A stretch of DNA of 64,000 bases from NCBI GenBank assembly GCA_000091205.1, contig AP006495.2. One strand, 5' to 3'. A program made the translations under genes and the position numbers. The notes beneath the pieces were generated by a model. It was not told the origin of the DNA. It searched no databases and was given only the letters and a program-made list of their open reading frames with translations. Positions 4,502 through 45,348 of the stretch are shown here, in pieces (position 1 is the first letter of the stretch; each line of letters opens with the position of its first letter). Origin of the DNA: Cyanidioschyzon merolae (Eukaryota).

Positions 4502-5683
4502 TCAGGAAGCGGTCTCGCTCATGCTTCCCTGGAGTGCGCCTTCTACGAGGTATTCCGCAATGGCCATCGACGATGTCGCTGCTGGCGATGGGGCGTTTCG
4601 CACGTGCACAACATTCCGATGGCGCTCGAAATGAAAATCATTTAGAAGCGTGCCATCACGGGTTAGCGCTTGTGCTCGAACACCGTAGAATGAGCGTTCA
4701 AGGTCGTGTGGACCAAGGTCTGGCACCATGCCACGCAGCGCTCGCCAGAGCGCGAGCGGCGCGTTTTCTTGCCACCATTGGCTCAGGCCGAATCGCCAGT
4801 GCTGCTGTACGAGCCGCCAAAAGCCCGGGTACTGAATTGGTGGCCATCCAGCCAGGGTTGCTGTTGGCCCAACCCATACGCGACGCCCATCAACGGAAGG
4901 CGTGAAGTGAACGCCCGCAAACGGGTAACGCTTGTCTGGGACCGGGTAGATGTTGCATCGGCTGAGCCCCAAGCGCTGGATTGCGTCGGGACGAAGCTCG
5001 AAATACTGGCCCTTTACCGGAAGAATGCGCAGCTGCGTCGTCGGCAGCGTGCTCCCGCCAACACATACAAAAACCCAGTCCCAATGCTGATACCAGGCTC
5101 GCGCGTCTACCGCCCATCGCGGGTGTGTCTCTGCGTCTGGTTCGAGTGCTCTCAGTGGAACCTCAGTGCCCAAGCGTAGGGTAAAGCGGTCACCTAGGCG
5201 TTCAGCGGCATCTGCGACAAGCGCTCGGGCGAGAGCCGGATAGTCAATCACTCCAGTATTCGGCGAATAGAGGCTTCGCACAGCACGAACACTTGGCAAG
5301 GGGACGCCATCGAGGAGCTCCAGCCCCTGAACGCCGTTCGCCACTGCGTTTGTAAAGATTTCGGCCAGTCGTCCAGCCTCAGCTTCGTTCCGCGCGACAA
5401 TGTACTTGCCCGCTCGTCGTACAGGAACTCGTTGCCCTGCGGGCGACTCGCAGAACTCGTAGATGTGACGTGCACCCAGGACGCAGAGACGACCTTTGAA
5501 CGAGCCGGGCGCGTAGCCGATTCCGGCGTGTATAACACCGGAGTTGTGACCGGACTGTTCTCCTGCTATGTGTTGCGACTTTTCAAAAACTTCCAATCGG
5601 GTGACCAAACCAGTGTACCGGGTAGCGAAGTAGTGTGCCGTTGCGACGCCGACGAGTCCGGCGCCTACAACGGCGACTCGCAT
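4502..5683 (-). CDS. L2HGDH: L-2-hydroxyglutarate dehydrogenase-like FAD-dependent oxidoreductase
   Basis: Rossmann start MRVAVVGAGLVGVATAHYF. Motifs GHNSGVIHAGIGYAPGS and C-terminal NAPSPAATSSMAIAEY match the L2HGDH/LhgO family. Confidence 0.75.
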   Translation of the reverse strand: MRVAVVGAGLVGVATAHYFATRYTGLVTRLEVFEKSQHIAGEQSGHNSGVIHAGIGYAPGSFKGRLCVLGARHIYEFCESPAGQRVPVRRAGKYIVARNEAEAGRLAEIFTNAVANGVQGLELLDGVPLPSVRAVRSLYSPNTGVIDYPALARALVADAAERLGDRFTLRLGTEVPLRALEPDAETHPRWAVDARAWYQHWDWVFVCVGGSTLPTTQLRILPVKGQYFELRPDAIQRLGLSRCNIYPVPDKRYPFAGVHFTPSVDGRRVWVGPTATLAGWPPIQYPGFWRLVQQHWRFGLSQWWQENAPLALWRALRGMVPDLGPHDLERSFYGVRAQALTRDGTLLNDFHFERHRNVVHVRNAPSPAATSSMAIAEYLVEGALQGSMSETAS

Positions 5684-5766: not shown

Positions 5767-5782
5767 AAACAAAAGCGAGGTG
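5767..5782 (-). terminator. RNA polymerase III T-run terminator for tRNA-Ala
   Basis: Immediately 3' of the tRNA the minus strand reads CCTCGCTTTTGTTTT. A TATATAAA element lies ~45 bp 5' of the tRNA, at 5912-5920. Confidence 0.5.
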
Positions 5783-5870
5783 TGGACGTGAGGGGAATCG
5801 AACCCCTGGCCTTGACAATGCTAATGTCACGTCGGGTACTGCAGCAGTCATACCACTTGACGACACGCCC
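5783..5870 (-). tRNA. tRNA-Ala(AGC) with a ~16-nt non-canonical intron between D-arm and anticodon arm
   Basis: The reverse complement folds as acceptor GGGCGTG/CACGTCC with a G3:U70 wobble (the Ala identity element), D-arm GTCA-AGTGGTA-TGAC, anticodon arm TGACA-TTAGCAT-TGTCA (anticodon AGC), variable AGGCC, T-arm AGGGG-TTCGATT-CCCCT, discriminator A. The 17 nt TGCTGCAGTACCCGACG lie between the D-stem and anticodon stem, i.e. N26 plus a 16-nt intron. Confidence 0.7.
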
Positions 5871-22143: not shown

Positions 22144-24396
22144 ATGATGATGATTGCGAAGAGATATACGGCGAGCGTTTCGCCCCGCAGAAACATCCGT
22201 CCGACGCGTACAGCGCATTCAGCACACCGCACCGCGAAATTCGCCGCGCCAAGCCAAACCTTTGGCACGCGCGCGGAGCCACGCACGGCAGGAGATCTTG
22301 CAACGTCGAAACCGGTAGGACACGTGTCCAGCACCGTGGCGCCTGCGATGCGATCAGCCCATGCATGCCTCGTCTGGCAGGTGCCGCCGCGCTGCACCCC
22401 CAACGGATCACATGACGCGCGAGCACGTGCATCCATGCTGCACGAACGACGCAATGCATGCGTGCGCGCATGCATGCATTTCCACACACTCGAGATCAGC
22501 GCAATGCGATACGTCGATTGCTCTTCGACAGCGGCATCCGACTGTAGTTCTGGCTTCCGTACGTTCCTTCTGAGCGTCTTGCCTGACTACCTGTCCCACA
22601 GGGCGATGACCTCCTGGCTTTCTCTAGGGCGCTGGCGAGCGTCGACGGTGTCCTTCGTGAGCTCGGAGAGTCCGCCAAAGAGCCTGTCGTCGCACTGTCA
22701 AGATGTGACGAGGTATGCGGACGCTGAGCTCGTAGTGCATCAGCGTGTCGCGGATTCACCTGCCGTCGTGTGCGCACCGGACGGCAAGACTGACGGTGCA
22801 GACAGGGACTTGCTGACGTCCACAAAGACGCAGCGAGCGTTGTCTAGAACTAAGCTCAAGAGGGGCTGGGGAAAGCTGGCATCAGAGCAGGGTGACGCGC
22901 GTTCTCCGGACTCGTGTTTCCGGGATGTTGCGCGTACGCCGGACCTGCGCTGCACGGACGAGTCGATAACGTCGTTGCTGACACCGAGCCTGTGTACCTC
23001 AGAAGCTGACACGAGCGTTGCTGGTGGGCACGACTCCAGCCCCACTGACCGGACGGAGCAGACAGAGGATATCCGTGGCCTTCTGGAACGCTACTTGCAA
23101 GCCGAAGAACGCTACGGTTACACGTGGACGTTGCCGACGAACGAATGCTTCCGTTGGTGGTCTGCCGCCAGATGCAACGGGCGCCTTGCCAACGCCGAGG
23201 TTGACTCTGGAGAGAGACGTGCCGCCTTCACTCGGATTGCATGGCAGTTGCGGCTGCGACAAGTCGAAGCCATCTACCGGCTTGCACCATGTATGGATAC
23301 AGCGCTGGCGGCAGTTATGTTTTTCGATAGAGGAATGGTGCGGTTTGTTCAAATCTACACAGATGCGGAGCTGTATGGCGATAACGACGCACCAGGTATG
23401 CGTCTTTTGCGTGTGGGGATGCCCTTGGTAGCGCTGACGTCGCTCTGGATTGCGACCAAAATTCATGAACGCGAAGCAGGAAATGTTCAAGCATGGCTTC
23501 GCGAGTGGCCGGTTGACGAACATATGGGATCACCAGGGGTTCTGGGCGCAGATGCCGAGGCATCGATCTCAATGCCATTGATCAAAGCGGTCGAGTTGGT
23601 GCTTCTGGAAGCGCTTGGCTGGGACTTGGTACCCGTCAGCCCGCTGCACTTTGCGATGACTTTCGCGGTGCTCGGCTCGCAGCGGTGCACCGGCGTGTGG
23701 GCGCTAACGAGCAAGCTCTGTTCTCTGAGCATGCTTGAACAATCTATCGCTGGCCGTTATCCGCCTAGCGCGATTGGGCTCAGCTGCTTGCTTTCGGCGC
23801 TGCGGCTTCGAAGGCATCCAATGGCGGTGCAGCGAAACGATGCACGCTACCCGAGCGGGAATCTGGTAGCGGAATGGGCGCGGGGCGTTCTGGAATTCAC
23901 AACGCCGAACGTTGACTTGTTTTCCTCGATGGTTCAGGAGCTGGAAGCTATGCTGCACGAAGTCGTGTATCCAATACCCTCAGCAGGGTTCTCCCGCTCG
24001 CTATCACCATGTTCACTGGAGAACGGTAAGAGGGATTTACGGAGACGCAAAAGGCGCGCTGGTCAGGATCTGGAGCGCAAGTGTCGGAGACTCGCCAAGG
24101 ACCAGTCTAGCCCCTTGACGTCCTTTCATGCCCAAGATACGTGCCTATTCCAGCCACATGGTGCCGAGCAAGAATCTCCAGAGCTGTACAGCAGCTCCAT
24201 GGAGACAGTTTCGGAGGCCGCGTCGCCTCGGAATGTCACGAGGATGTCTCCCGATGCGGGGCGTCCTTGTGCACCCCGCGGGCACGCCAGTGCCTACCAG
24301 GTAGCCATGCAACGCGCGATCTTGGCGGAATCTGGGTGCTGCCTCGAGACATGTACACAGCAGGCGCCGTCTTCACGCCGGCTGCGCTTGCACTAG
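22144..24396 (+). CDS. cyclin-domain protein
   Basis: Cyclin-box-like segment MRLLRVGMPLVALTSLWIATKIHEREAG...LIKAVELVLLEALGWDLVPVSPLHFAMTF. Long low-complexity N- and C-terminal regions. Start codon uncertain. Confidence 0.55.
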   Translation: MMMIAKRYTASVSPRRNIRPTRTAHSAHRTAKFAAPSQTFGTRAEPRTAGDLATSKPVGHVSSTVAPAMRSAHACLVWQVPPRCTPNGSHDARARASMLHERRNACVRACMHFHTLEISAMRYVDCSSTAASDCSSGFRTFLLSVLPDYLSHRAMTSWLSLGRWRASTVSFVSSESPPKSLSSHCQDVTRYADAELVVHQRVADSPAVVCAPDGKTDGADRDLLTSTKTQRALSRTKLKRGWGKLASEQGDARSPDSCFRDVARTPDLRCTDESITSLLTPSLCTSEADTSVAGGHDSSPTDRTEQTEDIRGLLERYLQAEERYGYTWTLPTNECFRWWSAARCNGRLANAEVDSGERRAAFTRIAWQLRLRQVEAIYRLAPCMDTALAAVMFFDRGMVRFVQIYTDAELYGDNDAPGMRLLRVGMPLVALTSLWIATKIHEREAGNVQAWLREWPVDEHMGSPGVLGADAEASISMPLIKAVELVLLEALGWDLVPVSPLHFAMTFAVLGSQRCTGVWALTSKLCSLSMLEQSIAGRYPPSAIGLSCLLSALRLRRHPMAVQRNDARYPSGNLVAEWARGVLEFTTPNVDLFSSMVQELEAMLHEVVYPIPSAGFSRSLSPCSLENGKRDLRRRKRRAGQDLERKCRRLAKDQSSPLTSFHAQDTCLFQPHGAEQESPELYSSSMETVSEAASPRNVTRMSPDAGRPCAPRGHASAYQVAMQRAILAESGCCLETCTQQAPSSRRLRLH

Positions 24397-27553: not shown

Positions 27554-30099
27554 TGAGCGTTGGATCGCTGCACGTGGCGCAGCAACACGTTCAGGCATTC
27601 TCGGAAGCGAGGTTTCAAAATTCTTTTCCTTCCAGCAGGCCGTGTTACATACACTGCGTCGAGCTTCAGTTTTGTTATCGCACGAATCTTTTATCGAAAG
27701 AGTCCGGAAGAATATGGACGGATGTGAGCCCCGTATCCGGAACACCCGTGAACTGTAGATTGACGTGCAGCTTCAAGTATCGGACAGCTAGAAGGGCGTT
27801 CGGCGAGCGAGAAGCCTTGCGAGCGCGCATGGCGCCGTTCATCTCATTTTTTGGAAGAGTCTGCAGGTTGATGTGTGTCACAAGGGAGGCCCTTACCATG
27901 GTATCAGCCTGATCTTTCCCCTCCGGCAGCTTTTCTTTCCCTGTAACCCATCGTCCTCTATTCAGGAGCATCTTTCTCTTCTTTGCAAGGTGCGCTCTTT
28001 CCTTCCTCATTTACTTGGCGCTGTGGCTTGGATACGTTTTCCAGACTCCATATCTGTTTTCTTCCGGGGAATTCAGACGCACAGGATGGAGAATACGACT
28101 GAAATTCGCCGATTCTGTTTATGCGTCAAAGATTTGTCAAATACATGTTCATCACCGTGTCCGTGGTGAGCGCACCAAGTAACTGGAGCGCACCTGTCTG
28201 CAACCGCCCGCGCACGAGCAAAGAAGCAAGAAACCTGTTCGGCACTGGAGAAGTGAAAGAAAGATGTGGCGAAAAACGATGCCACGGATGCAAACGACTC
28301 GTCCATTGATCGTTGAGCGTCGAACTAGGGTTTTACAACAGATAAGAGGCATTGGACTGGATTGAACCAGGTAGAACAGGCTGGCTCGAATAGCAGCTGA
28401 GCGCCAATCGCAGCTGGTTACTCGTTGCCCGCTTTTGACTGATGGAAACCCACGTCATCTAAGAGCGGAATAGCAGAGTGTGGAAAGCACGTACCACGAA
28501 GCATGCGTCGACGACGGATGAGGTATTCAAAGATGCCTCACAGTTGGCGATTTGGAAGCGGTCACATGATTGAATCCCCGTTGGCGTTCATGTTGTCATG
28601 ATGCTCGCTTTTCTCTCGTTTACGAACAGCGGTTTGCCGCTCTTTGAGCATTCACATGCAGTTCTACCATTTCTTCCGATTAGAGTCTGATCGTGTTAGA
28701 GGAACACCCGCCCATAGTTTAAAACGCTCTCGTGCTCATGGGAAATCGGTCTCATGTTGTTCAACGAGCGACGGTCTCCCACAGAGCCGAGGTTTTTTTC
28801 TACGTCTATTTCGAGTCTGCATGTAAGCGTTCATGTGAAAGGTACAGAAACTTTGTGTTTAATCGCTTTTTGGTGACATTTTTAGGGAATGTAAGAAGCG
28901 GAATGGACCGAGGAACAAACAGTGGCATAGATCGAGTTTGATTGCTTCAGTTTCCCGTGTACGACGTAAAGTGCAACGACTGTGGCATAGGCGGTTCATC
29001 CATCCGCCGACCATAGAATAACTGACTTTGACGAAAGAGACAGTATTTTCACAAGTTAGCCGCGACAGGGTAGAGTACATCAAATACCCACCTGGAGTCT
29101 ACAGGATATATCCATGTATTGAACAAGTGCGAGAAAAACGAACAAGACAAAAACGGCTTGCAGGTAGAGATGTTCTCAAATTCACTGTTTTAAATAGAAG
29201 AACTTGCGCTCCACCATATCAGAATAAAATGAAGCGGGTCTTCTGATACGGACGTATAGACTAGAGATTGGGTCGTTGCCCGATTTCATCGAAACCAGTC
29301 TTTGTGGACTTGTTTCGCAACTGTCTCATATTGCTCTCTTATTCCAAGCTTTGAATAGGGCTGGCTCCTTTGTTCCTCCAGCTCGATTCGTACTTAGAAT
29401 CAGGAGCTTCTTCTCGACCATCTTCTCAGCGAGTACGCTGTCAGCTGCATGCGCGAGCGCACATTGTACCATTTGATAGCGGACTTGTGCATCATGATGT
29501 TTTCCGTGATGAAACAAGTACGAGAATGAGTTTCCAGGTTGGATATTAATTGAAGATATTTCGATCCATTTACACTTGCTTCGGGCAAATCGTTGGTACA
29601 CGTTCCGCTGCAAGCGATTGCTGCGGTAACTCTAGACCGAGTGCAAGACCCTCGTCAATGCAAACAGGAGAGTCGGGAGCCTCTCCGAGCGGTATCCCGA
29701 AATGAGGTATCATGCTGGTACAAAATACCATTTCGTCAATGGTCAAATAGATATGAATCTTTGTCTTTCGAACGAAATCGGTGGTTTGCAGAGAGTCCTA
29801 CAGAGCACTTCCGGCATGATCTTGTGAGCAACTCGTCAAAGATTGACGTCGAGCGTTTACCTCTTCAGTCCTATGGCGCGAATCGCTGCGACTACGAGTT
29901 GTCTTGGAAATGGTGGACAGAAAATTTGGCGCATGCGCGATATGAGCATACAACAGGTATAAAACGGAGAAGAATCGCGGCTTTTTCATAAGAGTAAGAT
30001 ACCAATATCGATTGGGTTACGAACTTTTGCATACGTACGTCGCGAATCATCCTGACCCCAGTGACGGAACGAATGCCACGTGCAGTGTCGATAGAGCAG

Positions 30100-30325
30100 C
30101 CCCCCCCCCCAAAACGACAGGGAAACATCCGAAAACGACATATGAATCCGTACGCCCTCCTAGCCGAAAATGGGTTATCGAGGCTGTACATCCGAAAAAA
30201 AATGTCCGGAAAAAAAAAAAAAAACCTGGAACGGAGCGATCAGCCCAAAAATCCATAGGAATCTGAAACGACTGGACAATAGTTTCGCCAACTGCCTCGC
30301 CCCGAGTCCGCGACATACGCAGAAG

Positions 30326-30356
<31 letters not shown>

Positions 30357-30360
30357 ACAC
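30100..30360. repeat. low-complexity cluster: poly(C)11, poly(A)15, (CA)~17
   Basis: cccccccccc at 30100-30110, a15 at 30220-30234, and cacacacacacacacacacacagacacacac at 30326-30360, all upstream of the probable start codon at 30407. Confidence 0.9.
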
Positions 30361-30406
30361 TCTTGGGGGTTTTGGGAGCGTTGAGGCCCCCAACGTGCCC
30401 TCTTGG

Positions 30407-33400
30407 ATGACGACTATGGAAAATGGCACCGCGAGTGCCACGGACCTGCGCAGTGTCGTCGAACAAGCCGCACGCGAAGATGCCCCAGTCACTACAGTCG
30501 TTGTTGCACTGGAAACTTTAGCGTACTGGTGCCATGGCCGAGGAAAACCGCTGCAATCACGTGTCGTTGATGCAGCGGATCGGGAGCTTTTTCTCACCTC
30601 CGGTGCGCTCACAGAGCTCCTGGAACTGGTTCTCTCGCGTTGCCCTCTGGCTGCCTTCGGAACGCGTGAGCGAGCGGCACTCAGTGTTGCATCCATGTTC
30701 CGCTTTGGGCCCGCTGGACAGGTAGTGCTCGCTGTGGACAGAGCGTTGCGACGGGTGCAGCGACTTGCGAGCGACCCTGTGGTGCGCGAACAGCGAGCAA
30801 AGTGGATTGCTTTCGAGTTATTCGAAAAGCATTTCGTGCGTGTTCCAGGGTGTCTCCTTGGGGCACTAGCTGGCGTGCGCTATCGTGCCACGGAACCACG
30901 TTGCCTTACCGTGGACCGTGAGGCAGACCCCGATACCGTTCTTCGGTCTCTGCTAGCCATGCCGGACATCGTCACGAACGTCCTTCAATGCGCACTCCCT
31001 GAGACGTGTACGCTACATCCACAGCGCTATCCGCACTGTCTCGCTTGGACGGTTACCGAATGGTTATTGACACTTTGTTCATCGCAGTACGCTTCGATGG
31101 GAGTAGAGAAGCAGCAGCTAATTTGGTTGACAAATGAAGCACTGGCTTCAAATGTTGTCGCAGAGGTTAGCGGCTCGCTCTCAGCGCTGGACCTGCACGA
31201 AGACGACACGACGTATGGAAGCGCAGTGATGCTGTCGATGCCGTCGCCACAAGACGCCTACGCTTTCGGTTCCAGTGCATTGGAGACGCTTATGGACATG
31301 GCGGGAAGACTCGGGAGGCATCTCTGTCGTCGAAGATGCATCACAGCCTGGTGTCAGGTTGCGATCCGAGCGTTGATCGCACTAGAGCGCCAGCTCAGTG
31401 CCTCACAGGCCGACTACTGGAAACGTTGTTGCATGGAGAGCTTCACTGCGTTGCCAGATCGCTATATTGCACCACTCATGGAGCAATTTGCCATTCTGGG
31501 ATGCAAGGGTCCAGATCAACATCAAGTGGCGGCGATTGCATATCTGGAGTATTTGTGTAGAACTCGAGATACTGCGGTGGCCTTTGTATCGAAAACACTT
31601 CCGTCATCGATGCCCAAGGCTACATCCATGCTATCACCTCTGGCGGCGCCCGGGGACCAGAGAATTCTCCTTTTCCTGTTACGCAGTTGCAGAGATGTGG
31701 TCGAGACGTCACACTGGAGAACAGCATTGACGCTCGCGCTCAAGCGTTGGATGCAAACCGCGCGGACGGCCGCGTTGTGGGCGGAGGATCTCCATATAAC
31801 TCGAATGCTTCTGTTCCTGGCGCAAGCGAGTTGTTCTGGTGACCCGGAGCATTCATGCTCCCGAACTGAATCGTGCGAATCATATGGAGTGGATTGGTTT
31901 GTGCTCTTGGGCGAAGGAGTCAAAGAACATCTCGCGGGAGCGCTGCCAGAGACGCATTTCCATGGAATGATCGTTGGCGAGACAGTATCGAGAATATGGG
32001 ACCCGCCCGGCAAGAGCATGCAGTTTGACATTGCCGCCTACGAGGCTTGGAAAGCTAGCGACCCTGAGCTGCTGCAACCTTGGATCGAAGCGACCAAGGA
32101 GCCACTGCTCGCGCAGCACCAGCAGCACCAGCATCCAGTTGACGGGGGAGTTGCGACTGGGACGCCACCCTCCGAAGGCACCTCGTTGTGCGCACCTTCG
32201 ACACACGCTGTGGCCACAGTGGGAGTCAGGTCACCAGCTGTCGCCGACGAGAACGATAACGACGACCTGAAACCGTATCCAATGCCGGCTGATGAACTCG
32301 CGATTGATCCTCATTCGGAGCCGCGGGAAGACGGTACTGGATCATGCGCTCAGGAGACACTTGGGCTACCGCAAACATTCGAGACGCTTTATCGAGCGCT
32401 GGCCGCGGAGGTGCGGCACGAACCTTTCGGTGCCGAGGCAGCACTCCGGGGGCCTAGCTCCACAACACCCCAGGATTCAACGCCCACGTCGACGAGCATA
32501 CCCACGCAGCGTGTGCTGTGTCAACTCGAACAACTTATCGAACGCGACGTTGCAGGTCTTGAATATTGGGCGATGCCTATGCTTCAGCTGCTGCACCGAC
32601 TGGGCACCGGCTCCTCGTCCACATCGATCGCACGCGACTGCGCTGCACTTTGCAGAACAATCGCAGTCCATGCATTCTCTTCCATTGCAGTACCTGTAGC
32701 AAAACTCGTCTTCAGTCAGAATATGACGCTGACAGAGCGAAGCGAGTGGCTCGAGATCCTCGCGAACAGCGTCGAAACCCTTCTGAACACCCAATACACC
32801 GCACGAAAGCCAACACAGCGAGGCGCAGCGGAAGCAACCTCGCCGACACCCGAAGGCCATCAAGACCACCAGATATGCAGCCGCGTCAGGCGCGTTTCGG
32901 TGCGCTCGCTGCATCAAACAAAAGCACGGCAAAGCGAGTCTTTCGCGATGTCTCAGCGTGCGGTATTCACTGCAGCTGCAGGCGCTTGCGACGCGTCTGG
33001 GCAAACGTCACTTCACACCCAGCCGGCACTCCACTTCCATGCCATGGTGCAGGCGTTCTTTGAATTACTCGCTGGGGCGGACACCGAGGAGCCCTGGCTC
33101 GATCTCTGGCGACGGGATCAAATGCTTCTGGCGCAACTGGTACAGACATGTGCTCTGGTACTGCACTGTGCGCAAGGGCCGGGCTCTCTTTGTATAGGTG
33201 CGGTGACTCGTCTCGCCAGCATGGGACAAGCGCTAGCGCAACTGGCATACACAGCGCGAACTTGCTCGGATGCTGCAGTGCATCGGGCGTGTGTACTCGC
33301 ATTCAACGCTGTTTACGAGATTCTTTTGCGAATTCGTGAAGCGTACGGTATTCAAAGTTTCCGGCAATTGGAGCACTGGTGGAGATCGAACCAAAGCAGC

Positions 33401-33538
33401 TCCAATGTATCGCTAGAGCATATCGCGCAACTCCTTGAACGCTGGTCCAGTGATGCGCAGGACAGCGCAACACGAGAGCTCGCTCAAGCACTCCTACCCT
33501 GTTTCCATGATGACGGACGGGCGCAACGAATCGCGTGA
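30407..33538 (+). CDS. large alpha-helical repeat protein, possible TEL2 (TELO2) homologue
   Basis: The uninterrupted frame runs from 30170, but the 5' part crosses the homopolymer/CA tracts, so the start is proposed at ATG 30407 (MTTMENG). The acidic motif DENDNDDLKPYPMPADEL resembles the TEL2 DSDDDLVPYDMS CK2-site region. The rest is predicted helical ARM/HEAT-like. Confidence 0.55.
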   Translation: MTTMENGTASATDLRSVVEQAAREDAPVTTVVVALETLAYWCHGRGKPLQSRVVDAADRELFLTSGALTELLELVLSRCPLAAFGTRERAALSVASMFRFGPAGQVVLAVDRALRRVQRLASDPVVREQRAKWIAFELFEKHFVRVPGCLLGALAGVRYRATEPRCLTVDREADPDTVLRSLLAMPDIVTNVLQCALPETCTLHPQRYPHCLAWTVTEWLLTLCSSQYASMGVEKQQLIWLTNEALASNVVAEVSGSLSALDLHEDDTTYGSAVMLSMPSPQDAYAFGSSALETLMDMAGRLGRHLCRRRCITAWCQVAIRALIALERQLSASQADYWKRCCMESFTALPDRYIAPLMEQFAILGCKGPDQHQVAAIAYLEYLCRTRDTAVAFVSKTLPSSMPKATSMLSPLAAPGDQRILLFLLRSCRDVVETSHWRTALTLALKRWMQTARTAALWAEDLHITRMLLFLAQASCSGDPEHSCSRTESCESYGVDWFVLLGEGVKEHLAGALPETHFHGMIVGETVSRIWDPPGKSMQFDIAAYEAWKASDPELLQPWIEATKEPLLAQHQQHQHPVDGGVATGTPPSEGTSLCAPSTHAVATVGVRSPAVADENDNDDLKPYPMPADELAIDPHSEPREDGTGSCAQETLGLPQTFETLYRALAAEVRHEPFGAEAALRGPSSTTPQDSTPTSTSIPTQRVLCQLEQLIERDVAGLEYWAMPMLQLLHRLGTGSSSTSIARDCAALCRTIAVHAFSSIAVPVAKLVFSQNMTLTERSEWLEILANSVETLLNTQYTARKPTQRGAAEATSPTPEGHQDHQICSRVRRVSVRSLHQTKARQSESFAMSQRAVFTAAAGACDASGQTSLHTQPALHFHAMVQAFFELLAGADTEEPWLDLWRRDQMLLAQLVQTCALVLHCAQGPGSLCIGAVTRLASMGQALAQLAYTARTCSDAAVHRACVLAFNAVYEILLRIREAYGIQSFRQLEHWWRSNQSSSNVSLEHIAQLLERWSSDAQDSATRELAQALLPCFHDDGRAQRIA

Positions 33539-39446: not shown

Positions 39447-40991
39447 ATGGATGCAACTGCTCATATAGGCAGTGCGTTTGATCTCCGGGGGAATATCGGC
39501 GAAGAAAGCCCTCTCTCAGTGGAGAACGAGGCACCACCAAACGCTTTTCAGGGCACGCGGGGCTCGGACACGGAAAATGATAGCCGACTCTCGCTCGGTG
39601 CGCTTTCGTCCTATGCGCCGTTGCTTGTGGAAGTTGCTTGCCAGCTAAGCAAGTTACGAGATCGACTAAACGACTTGGAGCATCAATCGAGAAAATCGAG
39701 CTGTGTCCAAGACCAGCTGGGTGCACTTGCCAATCAGGTAGCCGTATTAGAGGAGCGCTTGCGCCAGCACGTGCTGGCTCGCGAGCACTGGTGCGCTGCT
39801 GAATCCGTTCCCGAACGGAAATCCCTCCTCGAAAGCGAGGATGCATCGGACGCTGTGGACAAACTCGCCGAGGAGTTCAGAGACCAATTTTTAGACATCA
39901 GAGCGTTCGAGCTCCGCCTCACTCAAGCGGTCAACGCGCGCTTTCTGGAACTCTATCGCTGGACGGAGTCCCAATTGACCCGTCTCGAGGAAAGACTTGC
40001 CAGCATCGACGTGGACGGCTCTCTGAAGCGCGAGATGGCCACGCATGCAGAGCAAATAGGTCAAAAACTGGAACACCTTGAATCGGGCATGCGTTCGTGC
40101 ATTTCACGCGAGGAGTGGTCACGTGAGCGTGACGCCCTTGAAAAGCACCTTCGCCATGATCTCGGCGAGTGCGCGAATCGCAACGCGTCGTCGAAACCGT
40201 CGGCACCCACAGAGCAGGGCACAACCTCAACCTCAGTTGCGCTGGATGCGATGCGTAGTGTCATGCACCTCCAGAGCACCGTCGAGGGGAATGCTCGCGC
40301 TGTCGAGGACGCCCTCACAGCAGTACGCACGAGCTGCCAAGCGCTCAACCAACGTCTGCAAAGAATAGAACACCAGTTAACAACGGATGAATTCGTCGGC
40401 GGCGCTGGCATGCGACAGGTCGCGCCACCACCAGACTGGAACCAGATCCAGCAAACCGTCCGAAAACTCGAAAGCCAGCTGCAGAAACTATCTTCCCGGT
40501 TACCGGATCCCGAAGAAATACACACCGCCGTAACACAGACCAAGGAACTAACTGGCCGGAACGATCAACTCGAACGAAGAGTAGAGCGCTTGCACGTCCA
40601 AATGGAAAGCGAGCGGAACCAGCGCAGCGAGCTGGAGCACAAGGTAACCCGCCTGGAGGACTTTACCAGCACTTTACAATCACTACCCGCCGAGTTGACG
40701 AGTCTCACCAAGTCCATGACCCAAGGCGATGAAGTTCTACAAGAGTGGGTGCGCGGCCAGCTCCAACGACTCGATGCGCGACTCCATGAACACGAATCTT
40801 CACTACACGAGCTTCGTGCGGAGACGGCGCACCTCTACGAACAGTATGCGGAAGTAGCAGCTCTGATCCTGTTGATGACTCCAGCCGACAACCGGGCCAC
40901 AGTGGAGCGACGAATTCGACAACTATTGCCGGGCCTTGGAGCGCTGAAATTGCCCGCATCACGCGCTGGCACCTCCGAGGACACCCGCTGA
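39447..40991 (+). CDS. coiled-coil protein of unknown function
   Basis: 514-aa ORF dominated by heptad-like segments rich in Leu, Glu, Arg and Gln. No enzymatic motifs. Confidence 0.5.
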   Translation: MDATAHIGSAFDLRGNIGEESPLSVENEAPPNAFQGTRGSDTENDSRLSLGALSSYAPLLVEVACQLSKLRDRLNDLEHQSRKSSCVQDQLGALANQVAVLEERLRQHVLAREHWCAAESVPERKSLLESEDASDAVDKLAEEFRDQFLDIRAFELRLTQAVNARFLELYRWTESQLTRLEERLASIDVDGSLKREMATHAEQIGQKLEHLESGMRSCISREEWSRERDALEKHLRHDLGECANRNASSKPSAPTEQGTTSTSVALDAMRSVMHLQSTVEGNARAVEDALTAVRTSCQALNQRLQRIEHQLTTDEFVGGAGMRQVAPPPDWNQIQQTVRKLESQLQKLSSRLPDPEEIHTAVTQTKELTGRNDQLERRVERLHVQMESERNQRSELEHKVTRLEDFTSTLQSLPAELTSLTKSMTQGDEVLQEWVRGQLQRLDARLHEHESSLHELRAETAHLYEQYAEVAALILLMTPADNRATVERRIRQLLPGLGALKLPASRAGTSEDTR

Positions 40992-41356
40992 ATGCACGCG
41001 AACAAACCTGCGCGCAACGATAAACCTAGCGCCTGCAGCTCAAACGAAACGTCCCGCCATCGACAGCAATTGCAGCACGCAGCGCAGGTTTACGGACGCG
41101 AGCATGCACGGCACTAGAAGCGATTCGGCATCCGTGCCGCCCCGTGCCTACCCTACATGCGCGTCGGCGACAGGGTGAACGCGCGAGCACGTGCCGTACC
41201 CCAGCCGTTAGCAACGAATCAGCGCCGGCGCCGCGCTCATTCGCGCGCATCGTCGGGCGCAGCACCTGCATGCGTGCGCGCACGTGCATCGCATGGAGCT
41301 GCGGCCACGTACAACGTGCCACGTGTCCATGCATCGTGCACGTAGCCGGGCGCTAC

Positions 41357-41420
41357 GTGCTGCTGCTGCTGCGGCGGCGGCAGCGGCGGCAGCGGCGGCA
41401 GCGGCAGCGGCAGCGGCAGC
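41357..41420. repeat. (GCN)~20 trinucleotide repeat (GCT/GCG/GCA)
   Basis: gctgctgctgctgcggcggcggcagcggcggcagcggcggcagcggcagcggcagcggcagcg. It sits between the 3' ends of convergent genes and yields poly-Ala artefact ORFs. Confidence 0.9.
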
Positions 41421-41670
41421 GGGCACCCCGGGATCATCAGGTGCCGGCGGCAGCGTACCGCAGACCCGTGGGCATCGACGGCACATCCGACGCGCCACGC
41501 CTCTAGGTGGCATCGAGCGTTCGCGACTGCCGCCGCCGCCACGCAGTGTCCTGGTGCCGGTGTGCACGCACCGACGGCGGCTGCCAGGAGCGTCTGCCGC
41601 GTCGTCTGCGACGTGCCGGTTGCGGTTGCCGGCTCGTTGACGGTAGGCGCGCCGCTGGCGCCAGCCCGAG

Positions 41671-44600
41671 TCAGGGCGCGGCACGCTGTAGCGCATCCGC
41701 GCGCAGCACCAGGCCGTACACGTACGGGCCGCGCACTCCGCCGTGTGCGTGTCGATCCCACTCGCCGGTGACCTCCAGGTTCAGTATTTTGCTGAAAAAT
41801 TGTTTGATTCGGTAAATTCTGAGCGGCTCCCGATGAGCGGCACCTTGACCAGCCCGTGGTGGTGCACTGTATCGATTGAAGTGGTCTTTGAGATTCCGTA
41901 AACGTACGAAATCCGTGCTCTTGGGGTTTCGGCGCACATTCTCTGTGATATCGTAGTGCTGGAGAAGGAAACCCGCGAATCGGGCGTACGCGTTATCGCT
42001 CCGGTGGATGCGCTCCAGCAGTTCGAGTCGTTCGCTCCGGGTCTGGGGCGGCTCGACGTCTCCCAGACCCTCAAGGGTGATCGGTGCTGTGCGGTCGCTC
42101 GAGGCCGACGAAGAGCGCACGTCGAGACTTTCGCCACTGGCGCCTTGCTCGAGCCAGCGGCTTCCAGCGGGGGCACGCGTTGCGTCATGGTGCAAGGCGC
42201 TGGATCCGGGAGCAGGAGCCTCATTCGGGGCGGATCCATCGCGCGTTCGCTGCTGGGCCGGTGCTTGCGGTGCGGCTGCAGCACCGGACGCTCTTCGCTT
42301 GGTTTTCGCTGCAGATGATACGCTGCCCGCTGTATCATGTTCTAAGCGCTGCGTAACTCGCGCGGCAGCCACCGCGGGGAACCTCTCTGGCATCGTCAAG
42401 TCAGGGTTGGTGCAAACGCCTTCGTCAGCTAGTGCACGTTTCCGTCCAGCTCTGTCCTCTAGATACCGCGCAGCTTCGCCATTATCGTACCGAGTCGAGG
42501 TCGATGCCGGCATCGCGCCGGGTCGCCGGTGCACGCTCGCATCCTCAGCTGCCGACAACGACGGACGCTCATTGATAAGCGCCCACGAGGCAGGTGCGGA
42601 AACGCTGGTTTCGGGTCCCAGCGAATGACCCGGTGCTGGGCGAGGCATGGCGCCCGGTTCTCCGGACTCGAACGCAAAAACAGACCCGGGCAGGTTGGCG
42701 TTCAGCATCGATCGAGTACCCATCGGCTGCGACTGTGACCCCGGTAACGTGGCGGTGCCTCGTGAACTGCCTCGACCGTGGCCCGCCCCACCAGTATGGT
42801 GCAGCAACAGCGGCGATGCGCTCGTGGTACCTGGATCAACCGCCGCGTTGGGCGTGCGCATCATCTGGCCGGGTGACAGGGCTGCCGCCGCTCCACCAGC
42901 CGTCACAAGCGATCGGCTTCCCGACGTCGACACATGCACCGCGGACGACGGATGACTGGCGTTTGGCGCTACAATGCCGCTCAGGCTACTGAGATGCTCC
43001 GTCGGAGGCGCGCGCATAAAGTCAGGATTTGTTCCCGGGACTCGTCCAGTGGGCTCCATGATCGAGCCGCGTGCAAGTGGCGTGGTTGCACCAGCAGACA
43101 AGAGTGCATGAAACGAATCGACGCGGTGCAGTTTCTCGGTGTAGGAATCTTCATCCACGCTACTTGGAGCTCCCACGACGACCTCGGGTATGCTGCGGTC
43201 GGAGCCGCCGCCGCCGCCGCCGCCGCCACCACCAACGCCGCTGCTGCCCATGCCCATGCCGCTCGAAACAAGCGCCATTTGTTGGTTCCCAAATGTGCCC
43301 GCACTCACACCGTACATCAAAGAGGAGCCTCCGTTTCCGCCACCTGGTCCCTGAGCGTAACCGTTACTGCCGCCAAGACCCGGGGAAGGCCCCGCCAGCT
43401 GCGCGCCATTCGCCCCGCTCGCACTGCCGCCCAGATCAAAAACGTTGTGCAGCGGATCGTCTTGGCTCATGGACCAGACCCGTGGGAGCAGTCCAACATG
43501 ATCGCCTCCGATCGAATCACCAGCTATTTCCTGATCATCGATGCTGGCGTCGCTATCTCGCATGGGACGCTCAGGCTGCCTTCCGCTAGGTAGTTCGTGA
43601 CCAAGATCGCTCAGCCCGAAGAGGTCTTCCTGTTTAGAATCCAACACGTTGTAGACCTCATCAATGGGCCAATCGCTCATGAGTTCCTGAGTCCCCTTCA
43701 GCGATAGCGTATTCGGGACCCGCACACCGTAGCCGCGCTTGTTCAGCACAACTTGGCGAAGGTATCGAAGCGCGTCCCGGGCTCGGCGACGTGCTACCCG
43801 ATTCTCGACAACCGGTCGCGGATAGGTGACACCCAGTTCAACCCTAGCCTGATGCAGAATCGTCGGAGGGCATTTCCACACCGCATGGATGTAGCTACTG
43901 GGGATCTGTTGCAACTCTGGACACCAGGTACGCACGTACTCACCCTCGGGGTCTACGCGCATGCCCATCACGACTGGGTTCACGAGGCAATTCAAGGGGA
44001 AAACGTCGTAGTTGCAGCCCGTCACCCACTGCCAGCAGATCGCGTTGCTCGCCAGATCGCCATCGATGAATAGTTTGAAGAGGCAACGAGCCCCGATCTG
44101 CCACGGCAGGAGAAGGTACTTGGTAAAAAAAGAAGCTACAAGAAACCGCAGATTCGAATGCAACCAGCCGGTGTGGTGCAGTTCCCGCATTGCCGCATCA
44201 ACGAGTGGGTAGCCCGTGCGTCCCGAGAGCCACACCTCGAGGAGACGGCCCACATCTTCCTTGGTGCATGGAAAATGATCAAATTCTGGCACCAGTGGTC
44301 TATCCAGGATCGATGGTCGGTAAAATAGCATATGATAAGCGTACTCGCGGAGGCAGAGGTTTCTCAGGAGCGTTCGAGCAGCCCGAATTATTGCATCTGA
44401 TGGCTCAGACTGCAGTACAGACGCCCGAACAGCGTGGTAGAGGCGCCGCGGTGACAATTCTCCGAACCGTAGGTACGGCGAAAGCCGTGATGTCCCGTTT
44501 CGGAGACGCTGTCGTCTTCGAGCGTCCCCATACGTCGGAAAGACACTCGTCAAGAAGTCTTGCAGGCGCTCTGCTACACAATCCACGCCGGGGCGCCAGT

Positions 44601-45348
44601 ACTCCTCAAGGCTGCCTAAGTTGTGTATCTGGTTCCACCAAATTCCCATTTCAGTGTCGGTATCCTCGCCGCCGGGCGACTGCAGCACATCCGACGGTTG
44701 CATCGTGGACTCGGGCACAGCGAACAGAGGCCCCTGATCTCCCGACTGGGAGGCAATGAGCGGCTCTATTCGCTTAGGTGCAGGCAACGGCTCTGGGGGT
44801 GGTGGCATAGCCATCCACGCTGACATGAACTCGTGGAAGGTGTCGAGCGGACGGTCCCCAAAGCTCGCGGGCCTGCTCTCTGTTGCACAAACCTCCCACG
44901 GCTCGACCAGGAGCTCCGCCTTGAAGGACTCAACAGCCAGGCGGTGGTGCTTCGACCATCGCCGCCGCACTTCCTCATCTCTGCGTAACACAACAGGGTC
45001 GTAGACCCGATTCCAGTACACAGCCTCGGCACCGCAGCGTTTCACGACCTCCAGAAGCGTCGTCTCGACGCCGCCGCCGCCGCCGCTTTCCGACTTCGCA
45101 CGCCTCAGAATTAACCCGGTTTCGCAACCTAGCTCCCGAAGTCGTCGGTCAAGTGCAACAATGGAACGACTCAACCACCAACGTGCCGGTCGGCCGAGAC
45201 ACCACATACCGTCCTCTTCGGGTGCCCAGATGAACACCGGCACCACCGGGCCTCCGCGCTGCACGGCAGCAAGCAACGCTGGCATGTCCTCAACACGGAG
45301 GTCGTGGCCGCGGTACCACACAACCGAAGGTCGTCTCGACGACGACAT
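41671..45348 (-). CDS. cryptochrome/photolyase family protein, plant-CRY / class III CPD-photolyase-like, with ~650-aa low-complexity C-terminal extension
   Basis: N-terminal VVWYRGHDLRVEDMPALLAA...PVFIWAPEEDG...GRPARWWL is like plant CRY1 (IVWFRRDLRVEDNPALAAA...VWAPEEEG...GRVSRWWL). FAD-binding region GRTGYPLVDAAMRELHHTGWLHSNLRFLVASFFTKYLLLPW...DPEGEYVRTWCPEL...IHAVW. The C-terminal half is rich in Gly, Ser, Ala and Pro. Confidence 0.85.
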   Translation of the reverse strand: MSSSRRPSVVWYRGHDLRVEDMPALLAAVQRGGPVVPVFIWAPEEDGMWCLGRPARWWLSRSIVALDRRLRELGCETGLILRRAKSESGGGGGVETTLLEVVKRCGAEAVYWNRVYDPVVLRRDEEVRRRWSKHHRLAVESFKAELLVEPWEVCATESRPASFGDRPLDTFHEFMSAWMAMPPPPEPLPAPKRIEPLIASQSGDQGPLFAVPESTMQPSDVLQSPGGEDTDTEMGIWWNQIHNLGSLEEYWRPGVDCVAERLQDFLTSVFPTYGDARRRQRLRNGTSRLSPYLRFGELSPRRLYHAVRASVLQSEPSDAIIRAARTLLRNLCLREYAYHMLFYRPSILDRPLVPEFDHFPCTKEDVGRLLEVWLSGRTGYPLVDAAMRELHHTGWLHSNLRFLVASFFTKYLLLPWQIGARCLFKLFIDGDLASNAICWQWVTGCNYDVFPLNCLVNPVVMGMRVDPEGEYVRTWCPELQQIPSSYIHAVWKCPPTILHQARVELGVTYPRPVVENRVARRRARDALRYLRQVVLNKRGYGVRVPNTLSLKGTQELMSDWPIDEVYNVLDSKQEDLFGLSDLGHELPSGRQPERPMRDSDASIDDQEIAGDSIGGDHVGLLPRVWSMSQDDPLHNVFDLGGSASGANGAQLAGPSPGLGGSNGYAQGPGGGNGGSSLMYGVSAGTFGNQQMALVSSGMGMGSSGVGGGGGGGGGGSDRSIPEVVVGAPSSVDEDSYTEKLHRVDSFHALLSAGATTPLARGSIMEPTGRVPGTNPDFMRAPPTEHLSSLSGIVAPNASHPSSAVHVSTSGSRSLVTAGGAAAALSPGQMMRTPNAAVDPGTTSASPLLLHHTGGAGHGRGSSRGTATLPGSQSQPMGTRSMLNANLPGSVFAFESGEPGAMPRPAPGHSLGPETSVSAPASWALINERPSLSAAEDASVHRRPGAMPASTSTRYDNGEAARYLEDRAGRKRALADEGVCTNPDLTMPERFPAVAAARVTQRLEHDTAGSVSSAAKTKRRASGAAAAPQAPAQQRTRDGSAPNEAPAPGSSALHHDATRAPAGSRWLEQGASGESLDVRSSSASSDRTAPITLEGLGDVEPPQTRSERLELLERIHRSDNAYARFAGFLLQHYDITENVRRNPKSTDFVRLRNLKDHFNRYSAPPRAGQGAAHREPLRIYRIKQFFSKILNLEVTGEWDRHAHGGVRGPYVYGLVLRADALQRAAP

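What the first reader, a model, noticed from the sequence alone, without database searches (positions are those of the whole stretch)
41671..45348. Plant-type cryptochrome/photolyase with an exceptionally long (~650 aa) low-complexity C-terminal extension
The photolyase-homology region (~560 aa) closely resembles plant CRY1/2 and class III CPD photolyases. It is followed by ~650 residues rich in Gly, Ser, Ala and Pro with poly-Gly runs. That is several times longer than the ~100-200-aa C-terminal extensions that mediate signalling in plant cryptochromes. A disordered tail this large could scaffold condensate or photobody-like assemblies, or carry regulatory phosphorylation sites. It could also indicate a gene fusion.
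Basis: partly seen in the sequence, partly recalled or inferred. Interest (0 to 1): 0.55.

Follow-up and report, generated by a model that had tools for sequence, protein, structure and literature searches.

The report
Red-algal cryptochrome fused to winged-helix domain

Summary
Window 41671-45348 (-) is one uninterrupted 1225-aa ORF, identical to C. merolae 10D BAM80957 "probable cryptochrome" (CmPHR3). It has a photolyase-homology region (aa 1-535) and about 690 further residues.

- **Tail length.** It is not exceptional. Red-algal homologues are mostly 800-1750 aa, with linkers of 140-804 aa.
- **Tail content.** It is not only low complexity. It ends in a conserved, basic, roughly 110-aa domain (aa 1104-1217) with 19 invariant columns across 26 red-algal sequences.
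- **Distribution.** It has no Pfam match. It gave 61 hits among 1.84 billion proteins, always C-terminal. All 9 full-length or near-full-length carriers checked against Pfam also match photolyase domains.

The photolyase-homology region is sister to green-plant cryptochromes. It lacks the plant hallmarks: the Asp396 equivalent is Asn, there is no DQxVP/STAES motif, and the terminal Trp of the triad is Cys. It has also lost most CPD-repair residues.

Best reading: a one-polypeptide, blue-light-regulated DNA-binding protein. The fold rests on a prediction, and DNA binding and light control are inferred. RFX homology is only marginally supported.

The parts
41671..45348 (-). Complete coding sequence of CmPHR3 (1225 aa plus stop); C. 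merolae 10D BAM80957.1 / XP_005536993.1 'probable cryptochrome'
   Evidence: ORF; exact match in NCBI, with neighbours CMM060C-CMM071C on the same 866,983-bp chromosome; BAM80957 is named PHR3
43744..45348 (-). Photolyase-homology region, aa 1-535 (PF00875 at aa 8-190 = 44779-45327; PF03441 at aa 328-527 = 43768-44367)
44044..44046 (-). Asn435, the position of AtCRY1 Asp396 and E. coli photolyase Asn378 (next to flavin N5)
   Evidence: It is Asn in 11 of the 13 red-algal sequences aligned and Asp in all 5 plant CRYs
44266..44268 (-). Cys361, the position of the surface tryptophan of the Trp triad (AtCRY1 W324 / E. coli W306)
   Evidence: It is Cys in C. merolae and Cyanidium, Ala in Porphyridium, and Trp in the other red algae
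42040..43743 (-). Low-complexity, presumably disordered linker, aa 536-1103 (Gly/Ser/Ala/Pro rich; G10 run at aa 706-715 = 43204-43233; basic NLS-like clusters RKR at aa 969-971 and KTKRR at aa 1015-1019, roughly 42292-42306)
   Evidence: composition; length varies 140-804 aa among homologues; indels concentrated here; pN/pS about 1.2 from 9 differences
43648..43674 (-). Conserved short motif A, DWPIDEVYN (aa 559-567); family pattern [DE]WP[DE]
   Evidence: (W560 and P561 invariant in A3)
43462..43494 (-). Conserved short motif B, GLLPRVWSMSQ (aa 619-629); family pattern G-L-L-P-x-L-W-x-L-L followed by acidic residues and Pro
   Evidence: the only broadly conserved island in the linker; 22 of 46 proteins; L620, L621, P622, W625 invariant
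41698..42039 (-). Conserved C-terminal winged-helix domain, aa 1104-1217 (leading helix aa 1104-1116; winged-helix core aa 1122-1215)
41710..41775 (-). Most conserved stretch of the domain, EVTGEWDRHAHGGVRGPYVYGL (aa 1192-1213): the loop and beta-hairpin 'wing'
   Evidence: V99, T100, G101, D104, R105, G109, G110, R112, G113, P114, Y117, G118 invariant. R, G, R-G and Y-G align with the invariant RFX1 wing residues R57, G60, R62, G63, Y70, G71

Best explanation
The ORF encodes CmPHR3, a red-algal member of the plant-cryptochrome lineage with a three-part architecture.
1. A flavin-binding photolyase-homology region that has lost most of the CPD-repair site.
2. A roughly 570-aa disordered linker of variable length, carrying two conserved short motifs and basic NLS-like clusters.
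3. A conserved, basic, C-terminal winged-helix domain of the RFX-like type.

The most likely function is a one-component blue-light-regulated DNA-binding protein (a transcription or chromatin factor). In this model, light acting on the flavin changes the conformation or oligomeric state of the photolyase-homology region. That in turn changes how the tethered winged-helix domains engage DNA. The LLPxLW motif would serve as a docking or activation motif.

Shown here: the ORF, the domain architecture, its conservation and restriction to red algae, the active-site substitutions and the phylogenetic position. Shown only as a prediction: the winged-helix fold. Inferred: DNA binding, nuclear action and light control of the output.
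For: - **Architecture and conservation.** All 37 best homologues from red algae end with the same domain. A1 has 19 invariant and 15 near-invariant columns.
- **Distribution.** A profile search of 1.84 billion representative proteins found 61 hits, always at the C-terminus. Of the 8 carriers scanned, 7 have both photolyase Pfam domains and an N-terminally truncated one (P0239) has PF03441 only. The window protein has both.
- **Taxa.** Every named carrier is a red alga: Cyanidium, Cyanidiococcus, two Galdieria species, Rhodosorus, Porphyridium, Gracilariopsis, Agarophyton and Hildenbrandia.
- **Charge.** The domain is basic in all 26 orthologues, with net charge +3 to +12 and pI 9.0-10.9, like RFX1 and RFX5.
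- **Residue overlap with RFX.** 7 of the 20 columns conserved in both families carry the same residue, mostly in the wing. The end-to-end profile alignment score was reached by only 1 of 300 column shuffles.
- **Loss of repair residues.** E274 is N, W277 is L, R342 is N, M345 is F and R397 is C. The 24 nearest bacterial relatives aligned keep this site almost intact, with only Q at E274 in some and two single substitutions.
- **Selection.** Population variants show 0 substitutions in the winged helix and pN/pS of 0.19 in the photolyase-homology region. The linker is relaxed and tolerates indels.
- **Localisation.** There is no N-terminal targeting extension and there are basic clusters upstream of the domain. 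A Gracilariopsis plant-like CRY localised to the nucleus in a heterologous system (PMC10853006).
Against: - No experiment bears on DNA binding or light regulation.
- Foldseek against the PDB found nothing significant.
- No Pfam family matches the domain, RFX included. The domain profile finds no PDB sequence.
- hhalign against an 18-sequence RFX profile gives Prob 1.6 % and local P 0.03. In the shuffle control, 24 of 300 shuffles reached the local score.
- A model of aa 1-662 was too poor (pLDDT 56) to show any contact between the motifs and the photolyase-homology region.
- C. merolae lacks the terminal tryptophan of the triad, so its photoreduction route is unclear.
- One clade member, P0038 (681 aa, an MMETSP transcript), lacks the domain.
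Confidence: 0.5

Rival explanations
1. It is an ordinary plant-type cryptochrome that signals only through protein-protein contacts. The long disordered tail acts as a C-terminal extension (a scaffold, phosphorylation platform or condensate former), and the terminal winged helix is a partner-binding module, not a DNA binder. This is.
For: - The photolyase-homology region is sister to plant CRYs with 100 % bootstrap support.
- The tail is Gly/Ser/Ala/Pro rich with low entropy.
- Many winged-helix matches are protein-interaction modules (Cdt1, APC2/cullin, SNF8).
- Conserved short motifs in the linker look like docking sites.
Against: - The plant signalling motifs DQxVP and STAES are absent in all 36 red-algal tails examined. 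Pfam Cryptochrome_C (PF12546) is not listed for any red-algal hit.
- The domain is uniformly basic.
- Its best structural matches are sequence-specific DNA-binding domains, and its invariant residues lie in the wing that RFX1 uses for DNA contact (the RFX contact mode is from my memory of the 1DP7 paper).
Confidence: 0.22
2. It is a DNA-repair enzyme: a photolyase whose winged-helix domain tethers it to DNA or chromatin to raise repair efficiency.
For: - It keeps the Asn next to flavin N5 (N435) and the second substrate-sandwich tryptophan (W441), as photolyases do.
- JGI pipelines call the near-identical metagenome proteins 'deoxyribodipyrimidine photo-lyase'.
Against: - Five residues of the E. 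coli CPD-binding and catalytic site are replaced (E274N, W277L, R342N, M345F, R397C).
- These substitutions are family-wide, while the nearest bacterial relatives keep that site almost intact.
- The terminal electron-transfer tryptophan is Cys.
Confidence: 0.1
3. The long ORF is an artefact: two genes merged, a missed intron or stop, or a C-terminal half that is never translated.
For: The linker shows pN/pS of about 1.2, but from only 9 differences.
Against: - The ORF is uninterrupted in a finished genome and in 12 independent environmental assemblies. Their indels are whole codons.
- The same photolyase-linker-winged-helix order is found across four red-algal classes, as assigned from my own knowledge of red-algal taxonomy.
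- The C-terminal domain is in frame and shows 0 substitutions.
Confidence: 0.02

Closest known systems
Plant cryptochromes CRY1/CRY2 (Viridiplantae; structures 1u3c, 6k8i, 6lz7)
   Same: The photolyase-homology region is the closest sequence relative (E 1e-87 to 1e-100). The red-algal clade is sister to the plant clade with 100 % bootstrap support in an NJ tree. Both have lost E. coli E274, W277 and M345 and both carry a long C-terminal extension.
   Different: - Asn replaces the proton-donor Asp396, and Trp replaces Tyr402.
- There is no DQxVP/STAES motif and no PF12546.
- C. merolae lacks W324 of the Trp triad.
- The extension is 3-5 times longer and ends in a folded winged-helix domain that no plant CRY has.
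Class III CPD photolyases (Agrobacterium PhrA, 4u63) and the bacterial relatives found here
   Same: They share the fold and the Asn at flavin N5, and keep W359, W382 and W384. They are the next-best match after plant CRYs (8e-77). The archaeplastid clade nests among them in the tree.
   Different: The bacterial proteins keep almost the full repair site (E/Q-W-W-R-M-W-N-W-W-R, with two single-residue exceptions among 24) and have no C-terminal extension (the ORFs kept for the comparison were 430-560 aa). CmPHR3 has lost five of those residues.
RFX transcription-factor DNA-binding domain (PF02257; RFX1 1dp7, RFX5 8zjr)
   Different: - There is no Pfam match. hhalign probability is 1.6 %, and the local score is not above shuffles.
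- The red-algal domain has an extra N-terminal helix, a 7-residue insertion before helix 2 and a longer loop before helix 3.
- RFX genes are reported only from unikonts (PMC12183034). This is either a very distant relative or a convergent winged helix.
Aureochromes (LOV plus bZIP) of photosynthetic stramenopiles, and other one-component light-regulated DNA binders such as EL222 and WC-1 (the last two from my own knowledge)
   Same: The design principle is the same: a flavin photosensor and a DNA-binding-type domain in one polypeptide, restricted to one algal lineage (aureochromes are described in PMC12558739).
   Different: The sensor (photolyase-homology region against LOV) and the DNA-binding fold (winged helix against bZIP, HTH or zinc finger) are unrelated. 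The sensor and output are separated by hundreds of disordered residues, not a short helical linker. Function is untested here.
Dualchrome DUC1 (a phytochrome-cryptochrome fusion in Pycnococcus) and diatom CryP
   Same: They are precedents for algal cryptochromes with non-canonical architecture or photochemistry (PMC8591175). CryP is isolated with a neutral-radical flavin. I recall, without having tested it, that this goes with an Asn at the Asp396 position.
   Different: DUC1 adds a second sensor, not an output domain. CryP has only a roughly 70-residue extension. No CryP sequence was available to include in the tree.

Membership tests
Cryptochrome/photolyase family | N-terminal alpha/beta photolyase domain plus helical FAD-binding domain | tested here: met
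   PF00875 E 4.5e-32 and PF03441 E 2.6e-64, both far above the gathering scores
Plant cryptochrome (CRY1/CRY2 type) | Phylogenetic placement with Viridiplantae CRYs, not with photolyases | tested here: met
   The red-algal clade is sister to the plant CRY clade, with 100 of 100 bootstraps for red, green and red+green (NJ, 478 columns). No CryP-type sequences were included.
Plant cryptochrome (CRY1/CRY2 type) | Asp at the flavin N5 proton-donor position (AtCRY1 D396) | tested here: not met
   Asn435 in the window. It is Asn in 11 of 13 red-algal sequences (Gln and Phe in the other two) and Asp in all 5 plant CRYs
Plant cryptochrome (CRY1/CRY2 type) | Complete Trp triad (AtCRY1 W400-W377-W324) | tested here: not met
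   W439 and W416 are present, but W324 is Cys361. Most other red-algal members keep the Trp.
Plant cryptochrome (CRY1/CRY2 type) | C-terminal extension with DAS motifs (DQxVP, acidic stretch, STAES; Pfam PF12546) | tested here: not met
   No DQxVP, STAES or acidic run in the tail. Found in 0 of 36 red-algal homologues and 81 of 82 plant hits. PF12546 is absent from the red-algal rows.
CPD photolyase (class I/III) | Substrate-binding and catalytic residues (E. coli E274, W277, R342, M345, N378, W384, R397) | tested here: not met
   Only N378 and W384 are kept. The other five are N, L, N, F and C. The 24 nearest bacterial relatives keep the set almost intact
CPD photolyase (class I/III) | Light-dependent repair of pyrimidine dimers | not testable with these tools
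   This needs an enzyme assay or complementation. The paper that tested C. merolae PHR proteins (Asimgil and Kavakli 2012) is not held in the library
Winged-helix fold | Helix-strand-helix-helix-hairpin topology | tested here: met
RFX DNA-binding domain (PF02257) | Significant sequence or profile match to the RFX family | tested here: not met
   No Pfam hit at E up to 10. hhalign Prob 1.6 %, local P 0.031, reached by 24 of 300 shuffles. Only the global alignment stands out, reached by 1 of 300 shuffles
RFX DNA-binding domain (PF02257) | Closest structural neighbour is RFX, and the invariant wing residues are shared | tested here: inconclusive
RFX DNA-binding domain (PF02257) | Binding to an X-box-like inverted repeat | not testable with these tools
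   This needs SELEX, DAP-seq or EMSA

The most novel reading that the evidence does not exclude
Red algae lack phytochromes and have no described blue-light transcription factor. On this reading they use a lineage-specific family of cryptochrome-winged-helix proteins as one-component, light-gated transcription factors. The output domain would be a true, very distant homologue of the RFX DNA-binding domain. That would extend the RFX superfamily beyond unikonts and give red algae a functional counterpart of stramenopile aureochromes.
Probability: 0.25. Interest if true: 0.8.

Novelty: new variant of a known kind. Interest (0 to 1): 0.6.

Why it matters
Red algae have no phytochromes (PMC10853006), and how their cryptochromes pass on a signal is unknown. 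Plant cryptochromes signal through DQxVP/STAES-type motifs, which are absent here.

A conserved DNA-binding-type domain at the end of every red-algal plant-lineage cryptochrome gives a concrete hypothesis that can be tested directly: the receptor itself touches DNA. C. merolae is genetically tractable (CRISPR) and has almost no introns, so deletion of aa 1104-1217, ChIP and DAP-seq are all feasible.

If confirmed, this would be a new class of one-component photoreceptor-transcription factor and a candidate optogenetic module. It would also explain why these proteins carry such long tails: the tail is a tether, not the signal.

If the domain turns out to be a protein-interaction module, the finding still defines a red-alga-specific output domain absent from Pfam.

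Tried and rejected
- **Sequence searches with the C-terminal domain.** Pfam scans of four C-terminal domains at E up to 10 gave no meaningful family. A profile search of PDB sequences with A1 gave no hit.
- **Foldseek.** The domain model against the PDB gave nothing below E = 2. The afdb50 library was not available.
- **hhalign against RFX.** A 2-sequence RFX profile and an 18-sequence RFX profile were both not significant locally.
- **AlphaFold model of aa 1-662.** This was meant to show whether motifs A and B dock on the photolyase-homology region. With 11 sequences the model was poor (pLDDT 56; aa 530-662 below 50) and says nothing.
- **Exact look-up of the window protein among encoding contigs.** Not on record, although the cluster look-up found it.
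- **Bacterial genome scan.** The first scan, with the full photolyase-region alignment, used patterns that were too specific and confirmed nothing. A second, with a FAD-domain alignment, worked.
- **Literature.** Asimgil and Kavakli 2012 and Brawley et al. 2017 are not held. No held paper links red-algal cryptochromes with a winged-helix or RFX domain, and locus-tag searches found nothing more.
- **COP1-type VP motif.** There is only one loose match, IPEVVVG at aa 720, shared with Cyanidium only. I did not pursue it.
- **Kinetoplastid or bacterial origin of the window.** I considered this at the start and rejected it because of the alternating gene strands and the exact C. merolae matches.
Full report
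**1. What is at the coordinates**

Window 41671-45348 on the minus strand is a single ATG-initiated ORF of 1225 codons with no internal stop. The window shows intron-free ORFs on alternating strands at about 55 % GC.

Exact-sequence look-ups place seven of its proteins in Cyanidioschyzon merolae 10D, on one 866,983-bp chromosome, with locus tags CMM060C to CMM071C. The ORF in question is BAM80957.1 / XP_005536993.1, "probable cryptochrome". A C. merolae preprint lists this accession as PHR3 (10.1101/2021.05.23.445365). The gene is therefore already annotated.

**2. Checking the observation**

Pfam finds the photolyase alpha/beta domain at aa 8-190 and the FAD-binding domain at aa 328-527.

| Solved-structure match | E-value |
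|---|---|
| Maize and Arabidopsis CRY1/CRY2 | 1e-87 to 1e-100 |
| Class III photolyase PhrA | 8e-77 |
| Class I photolyases | about 1e-48 |

Residues 536-1105 are 13.9 % Gly, 13.0 % Ser, 12.1 % Ala and 8.4 % Pro. They include a run of ten glycines at aa 706 and 40-residue windows with entropy down to 2.7 bits.

The ORF is real:
- Twelve near-identical proteins from environmental metagenomes keep the frame. Their insertions and deletions are whole codons, and almost all lie in the linker.
- Against one such contig (L002), pN/pS is 0.19 in the photolyase-homology region. It is 1.24 in the linker, from only 2 synonymous and 7 non-synonymous differences. It is 0 in the last 120 residues.

**3.

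A homology search returned about 37 long proteins from red algae ahead of any land-plant cryptochrome. Most are 800-1750 aa. Named sources are Cyanidium, Cyanidiococcus, Rhodosorus, Porphyridium, Gracilariopsis and Agarophyton. Galdieria and Hildenbrandia were added later.

All 37 end with the same sequence, of the type ...DYVRLCxLKDxYHxxC...KLKIYRIKxFFSKILxLEVTGEWDRHNHGGVRGPYVYGI. An alignment of 26 of them (A1) has 19 invariant and 15 nearly invariant columns over about 105 residues.

The spacer between the photolyase-homology region and this domain varies from 140 to 804 residues. The C. merolae tail is therefore typical for the family, not exceptional. The low-complexity part behaves as a linker of free length and sequence.

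Only two islands in the linker are conserved widely:
- [DE]WP[DE] at aa 559-567.
- GLLPxLWxLL at aa 619-629, present in 22 of 46 proteins.

By eye, the second resembles acidic-hydrophobic activation or docking motifs such as the FSDLWKLL segment of p53. That is a resemblance recalled from memory, not a test.

**4. Nature of the C-terminal domain**

- **Sequence searches.** The domain has no Pfam match even at E = 10. Its profile has no match among PDB sequences.
- **Distribution.** A profile search that reads every one of 1.84 billion representative proteins found only 61 hits, always at the C-terminus. Of the 8 carriers scanned against Pfam, 7 have both photolyase domains, and an N-terminally truncated one has the FAD-binding domain only. 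[quoted passage not shown]
- **Fold.** AlphaFold2 with A1 gives a confident model (mean pLDDT 86, pTM 0.80). It has a leading helix followed by a helix-strand-strand-helix-helix-hairpin core.
- **Charge.** The domain is basic in all 26 orthologues (net +3 to +12, pI 9.0-10.9), like RFX1 and RFX5.

I call it a winged-helix domain of RFX-like shape.

Whether it is homologous to RFX is not settled:
- Foldseek found nothing significant.
- hhalign against an 18-sequence RFX profile built gives Prob 1.6 % and local P 0.03. In the shuffle control, 24 of 300 column shuffles reached that local score.
- The end-to-end alignment is collinear (73 columns, about 27 % identity), and only 1 of 300 shuffles reached its score.
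- Seven of the twenty columns conserved in both families carry the same residue. They are F43 in helix 3 and R57, G60, R62, G63, Y70 and G71 in the wing.
- As I recall the 1DP7 structure, the wing is the element RFX1 uses for major-groove contact.
- RFX genes have been reported only from unikonts (PMC12183034). A true relationship would be a surprise. Convergence within the winged-helix fold is the conservative reading.

**5. The photolyase-homology region**

I aligned the window protein with E. coli photolyase (fetched as L001), plant CRY1s and red-algal homologues, and checked the result against AtCRY1 numbering from 1u3c.

| E. coli residue (AtCRY1 residue) | CmPHR3 | Plant CRYs |
|---|---|---|
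| E274 | N330 | S (A or Q in two of five) |
| W277 (L296) | L333 | L (Y in Scenedesmus) |
| W306 (W324) | C361 | W |
| R342 | N399 | R |
| M345 | F402 | V |
| W359 (W377) | W416 | W |
| N378 (D396) | N435 | D |
| W382 (W400) | W439 | W |
| W384 (Y402) | W441 | Y |
| R397 | C454 | R (Q in Scenedesmus) |

The 24 closest bacterial relatives aligned, from a scan of prokaryotic genomes, keep nearly the whole repair signature E/Q-W-W-R-M-W-N-W-W-R.

The red-algal proteins have lost most residues that hold and split a pyrimidine dimer, as plant cryptochromes have. They keep the photolyase-type Asn beside flavin N5 where plant cryptochromes have the proton-donor Asp. Loss of the terminal tryptophan is limited to C. 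merolae and Cyanidium (Cys) and Porphyridium (Ala).

A neighbour-joining tree (478 columns, 100 bootstraps) gives 100 % support for each of three groupings: a red-algal clade, a Viridiplantae CRY clade, and the union of the two. That union nests among the bacterial class III-like photolyases. No CryP-type sequence was available, so the relation to "plant-like" CRYs in the sense of the algal reviews (PMC8591175) was not tested.

The plant C-terminal signalling motifs are absent. DQxVP or STAES occurs in 0 of 36 red-algal tails, and DQxVP occurs in 81 of 82 plant hits.

**6. How it most likely works**

Shown:
- A flavin-binding sensor domain that is cryptochrome-like and has lost the repair site.
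- A long linker of unconstrained length, with two conserved short motifs and basic clusters (RKR at aa 969, KTKRR at aa 1015).
- A strongly conserved, basic domain at the C-terminus, restricted to red algae. Its winged-helix fold is predicted, not solved.

Inferred: the protein works as a one-component light-regulated DNA-binding factor. Blue light would change the redox state of the flavin and then the conformation or oligomeric state of the sensor, as it does in plant CRY2. That would change the number or availability of tethered winged-helix domains on DNA. The LLPxLW motif could recruit a partner or fold back on the sensor.

The nearest functional analogy is the aureochrome of stramenopiles (LOV plus bZIP), not any cryptochrome. 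Nuclear localisation of a Gracilariopsis plant-like CRY in a heterologous system fits this model (PMC10853006). I could not tell which paralogue that protein corresponds to.

I put about 0.5 on this model. Most of the remaining weight goes to a protein-interaction role for the domain (0.22) and to a tethered repair enzyme (0.1). The artefact rival gets 0.02, and I leave the rest unassigned.

**7. Novelty and verdict**

The gene and its cryptochrome annotation are known, and long tails are the rule in red algae. On the terms in which it was raised, the finding is ordinary.

The C-terminal winged-helix domain appears to be undescribed. It has no Pfam family. None of the searches linking cryptochromes or red algae with a winged-helix or RFX domain returned a relevant paper from the held library. 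This is an absence in that library only.

I rate it a new variant of a known kind, with interest of about 0.6. It converts "how do red-algal cryptochromes signal?" into a set of direct experiments in a tractable organism.

Noticed in passing
window 41371-41422 (also 41247-41292): There is a (GCGGCA)n / (GCGGCGGCA)n microsatellite of about 8.7 units. It lies in the 680-bp gap between the convergent 3' ends of the coiled-coil gene (39447-40991, +) and CmPHR3 (41671, -). It produces spurious poly-Ala, poly-Arg-Gln and poly-Pro-Leu ORFs in several frames.
   Followed up: partly
window 5782-5870 (-): A tRNA-Tyr (anticodon GTA) is called by both ARAGORN and Rfam. At 89 nt it is long for a tRNA, so it probably contains an intron. 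It sits about 100 bp from the start of the L-2-hydroxyglutarate oxidase-like gene at 4502-5683.
   Followed up: no
window 28001-30000: GC content drops to 0.47 here against 0.53-0.63 elsewhere, just upstream of the TEL2-domain gene CMM071C (30170-33538). No ORF of 250 aa or more lies in this stretch.
   Followed up: no
window 22144-24396 (+) and 30170-33538 (+): The C. merolae 10D proteins CMM069C (750 aa) and CMM071C (1122 aa) are longer than most of their environmental cluster mates (582-653 aa and 1040 aa). This suggests different start codons or indels between the reference annotation and natural populations.
   Followed up: no
P0038 (MMETSP transcript, 681 aa), related sequence: One member of the red-algal cryptochrome clade groups with Rhodosorus and is flagged as a complete transcript, yet lacks the winged-helix domain. 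It is either a paralogue that lost the domain or a truncated assembly.
   Followed up: partly
P0034 / P0037 (Cyanidiococcus and a relative), P0228 (Galdieria phlegrea): Some Cyanidiophyceae members deviate at the flavin N5 position: Gln in Cyanidiococcus and Phe in G. phlegrea, where the rest have Asn. Cyanidiococcus also has a roughly 110-residue insertion inside the photolyase-homology region. This points to divergent photochemistry within the family.
   Followed up: no
window aa 720-726 of CmPHR3 (about 43171-43191, -): IPEVVVG (LPEVALSG in Cyanidium) loosely resembles the COP1-binding VP motif of plant photoreceptors. It is shared only by these two species. Whether C. merolae has COP1 was not checked.
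   Followed up: no
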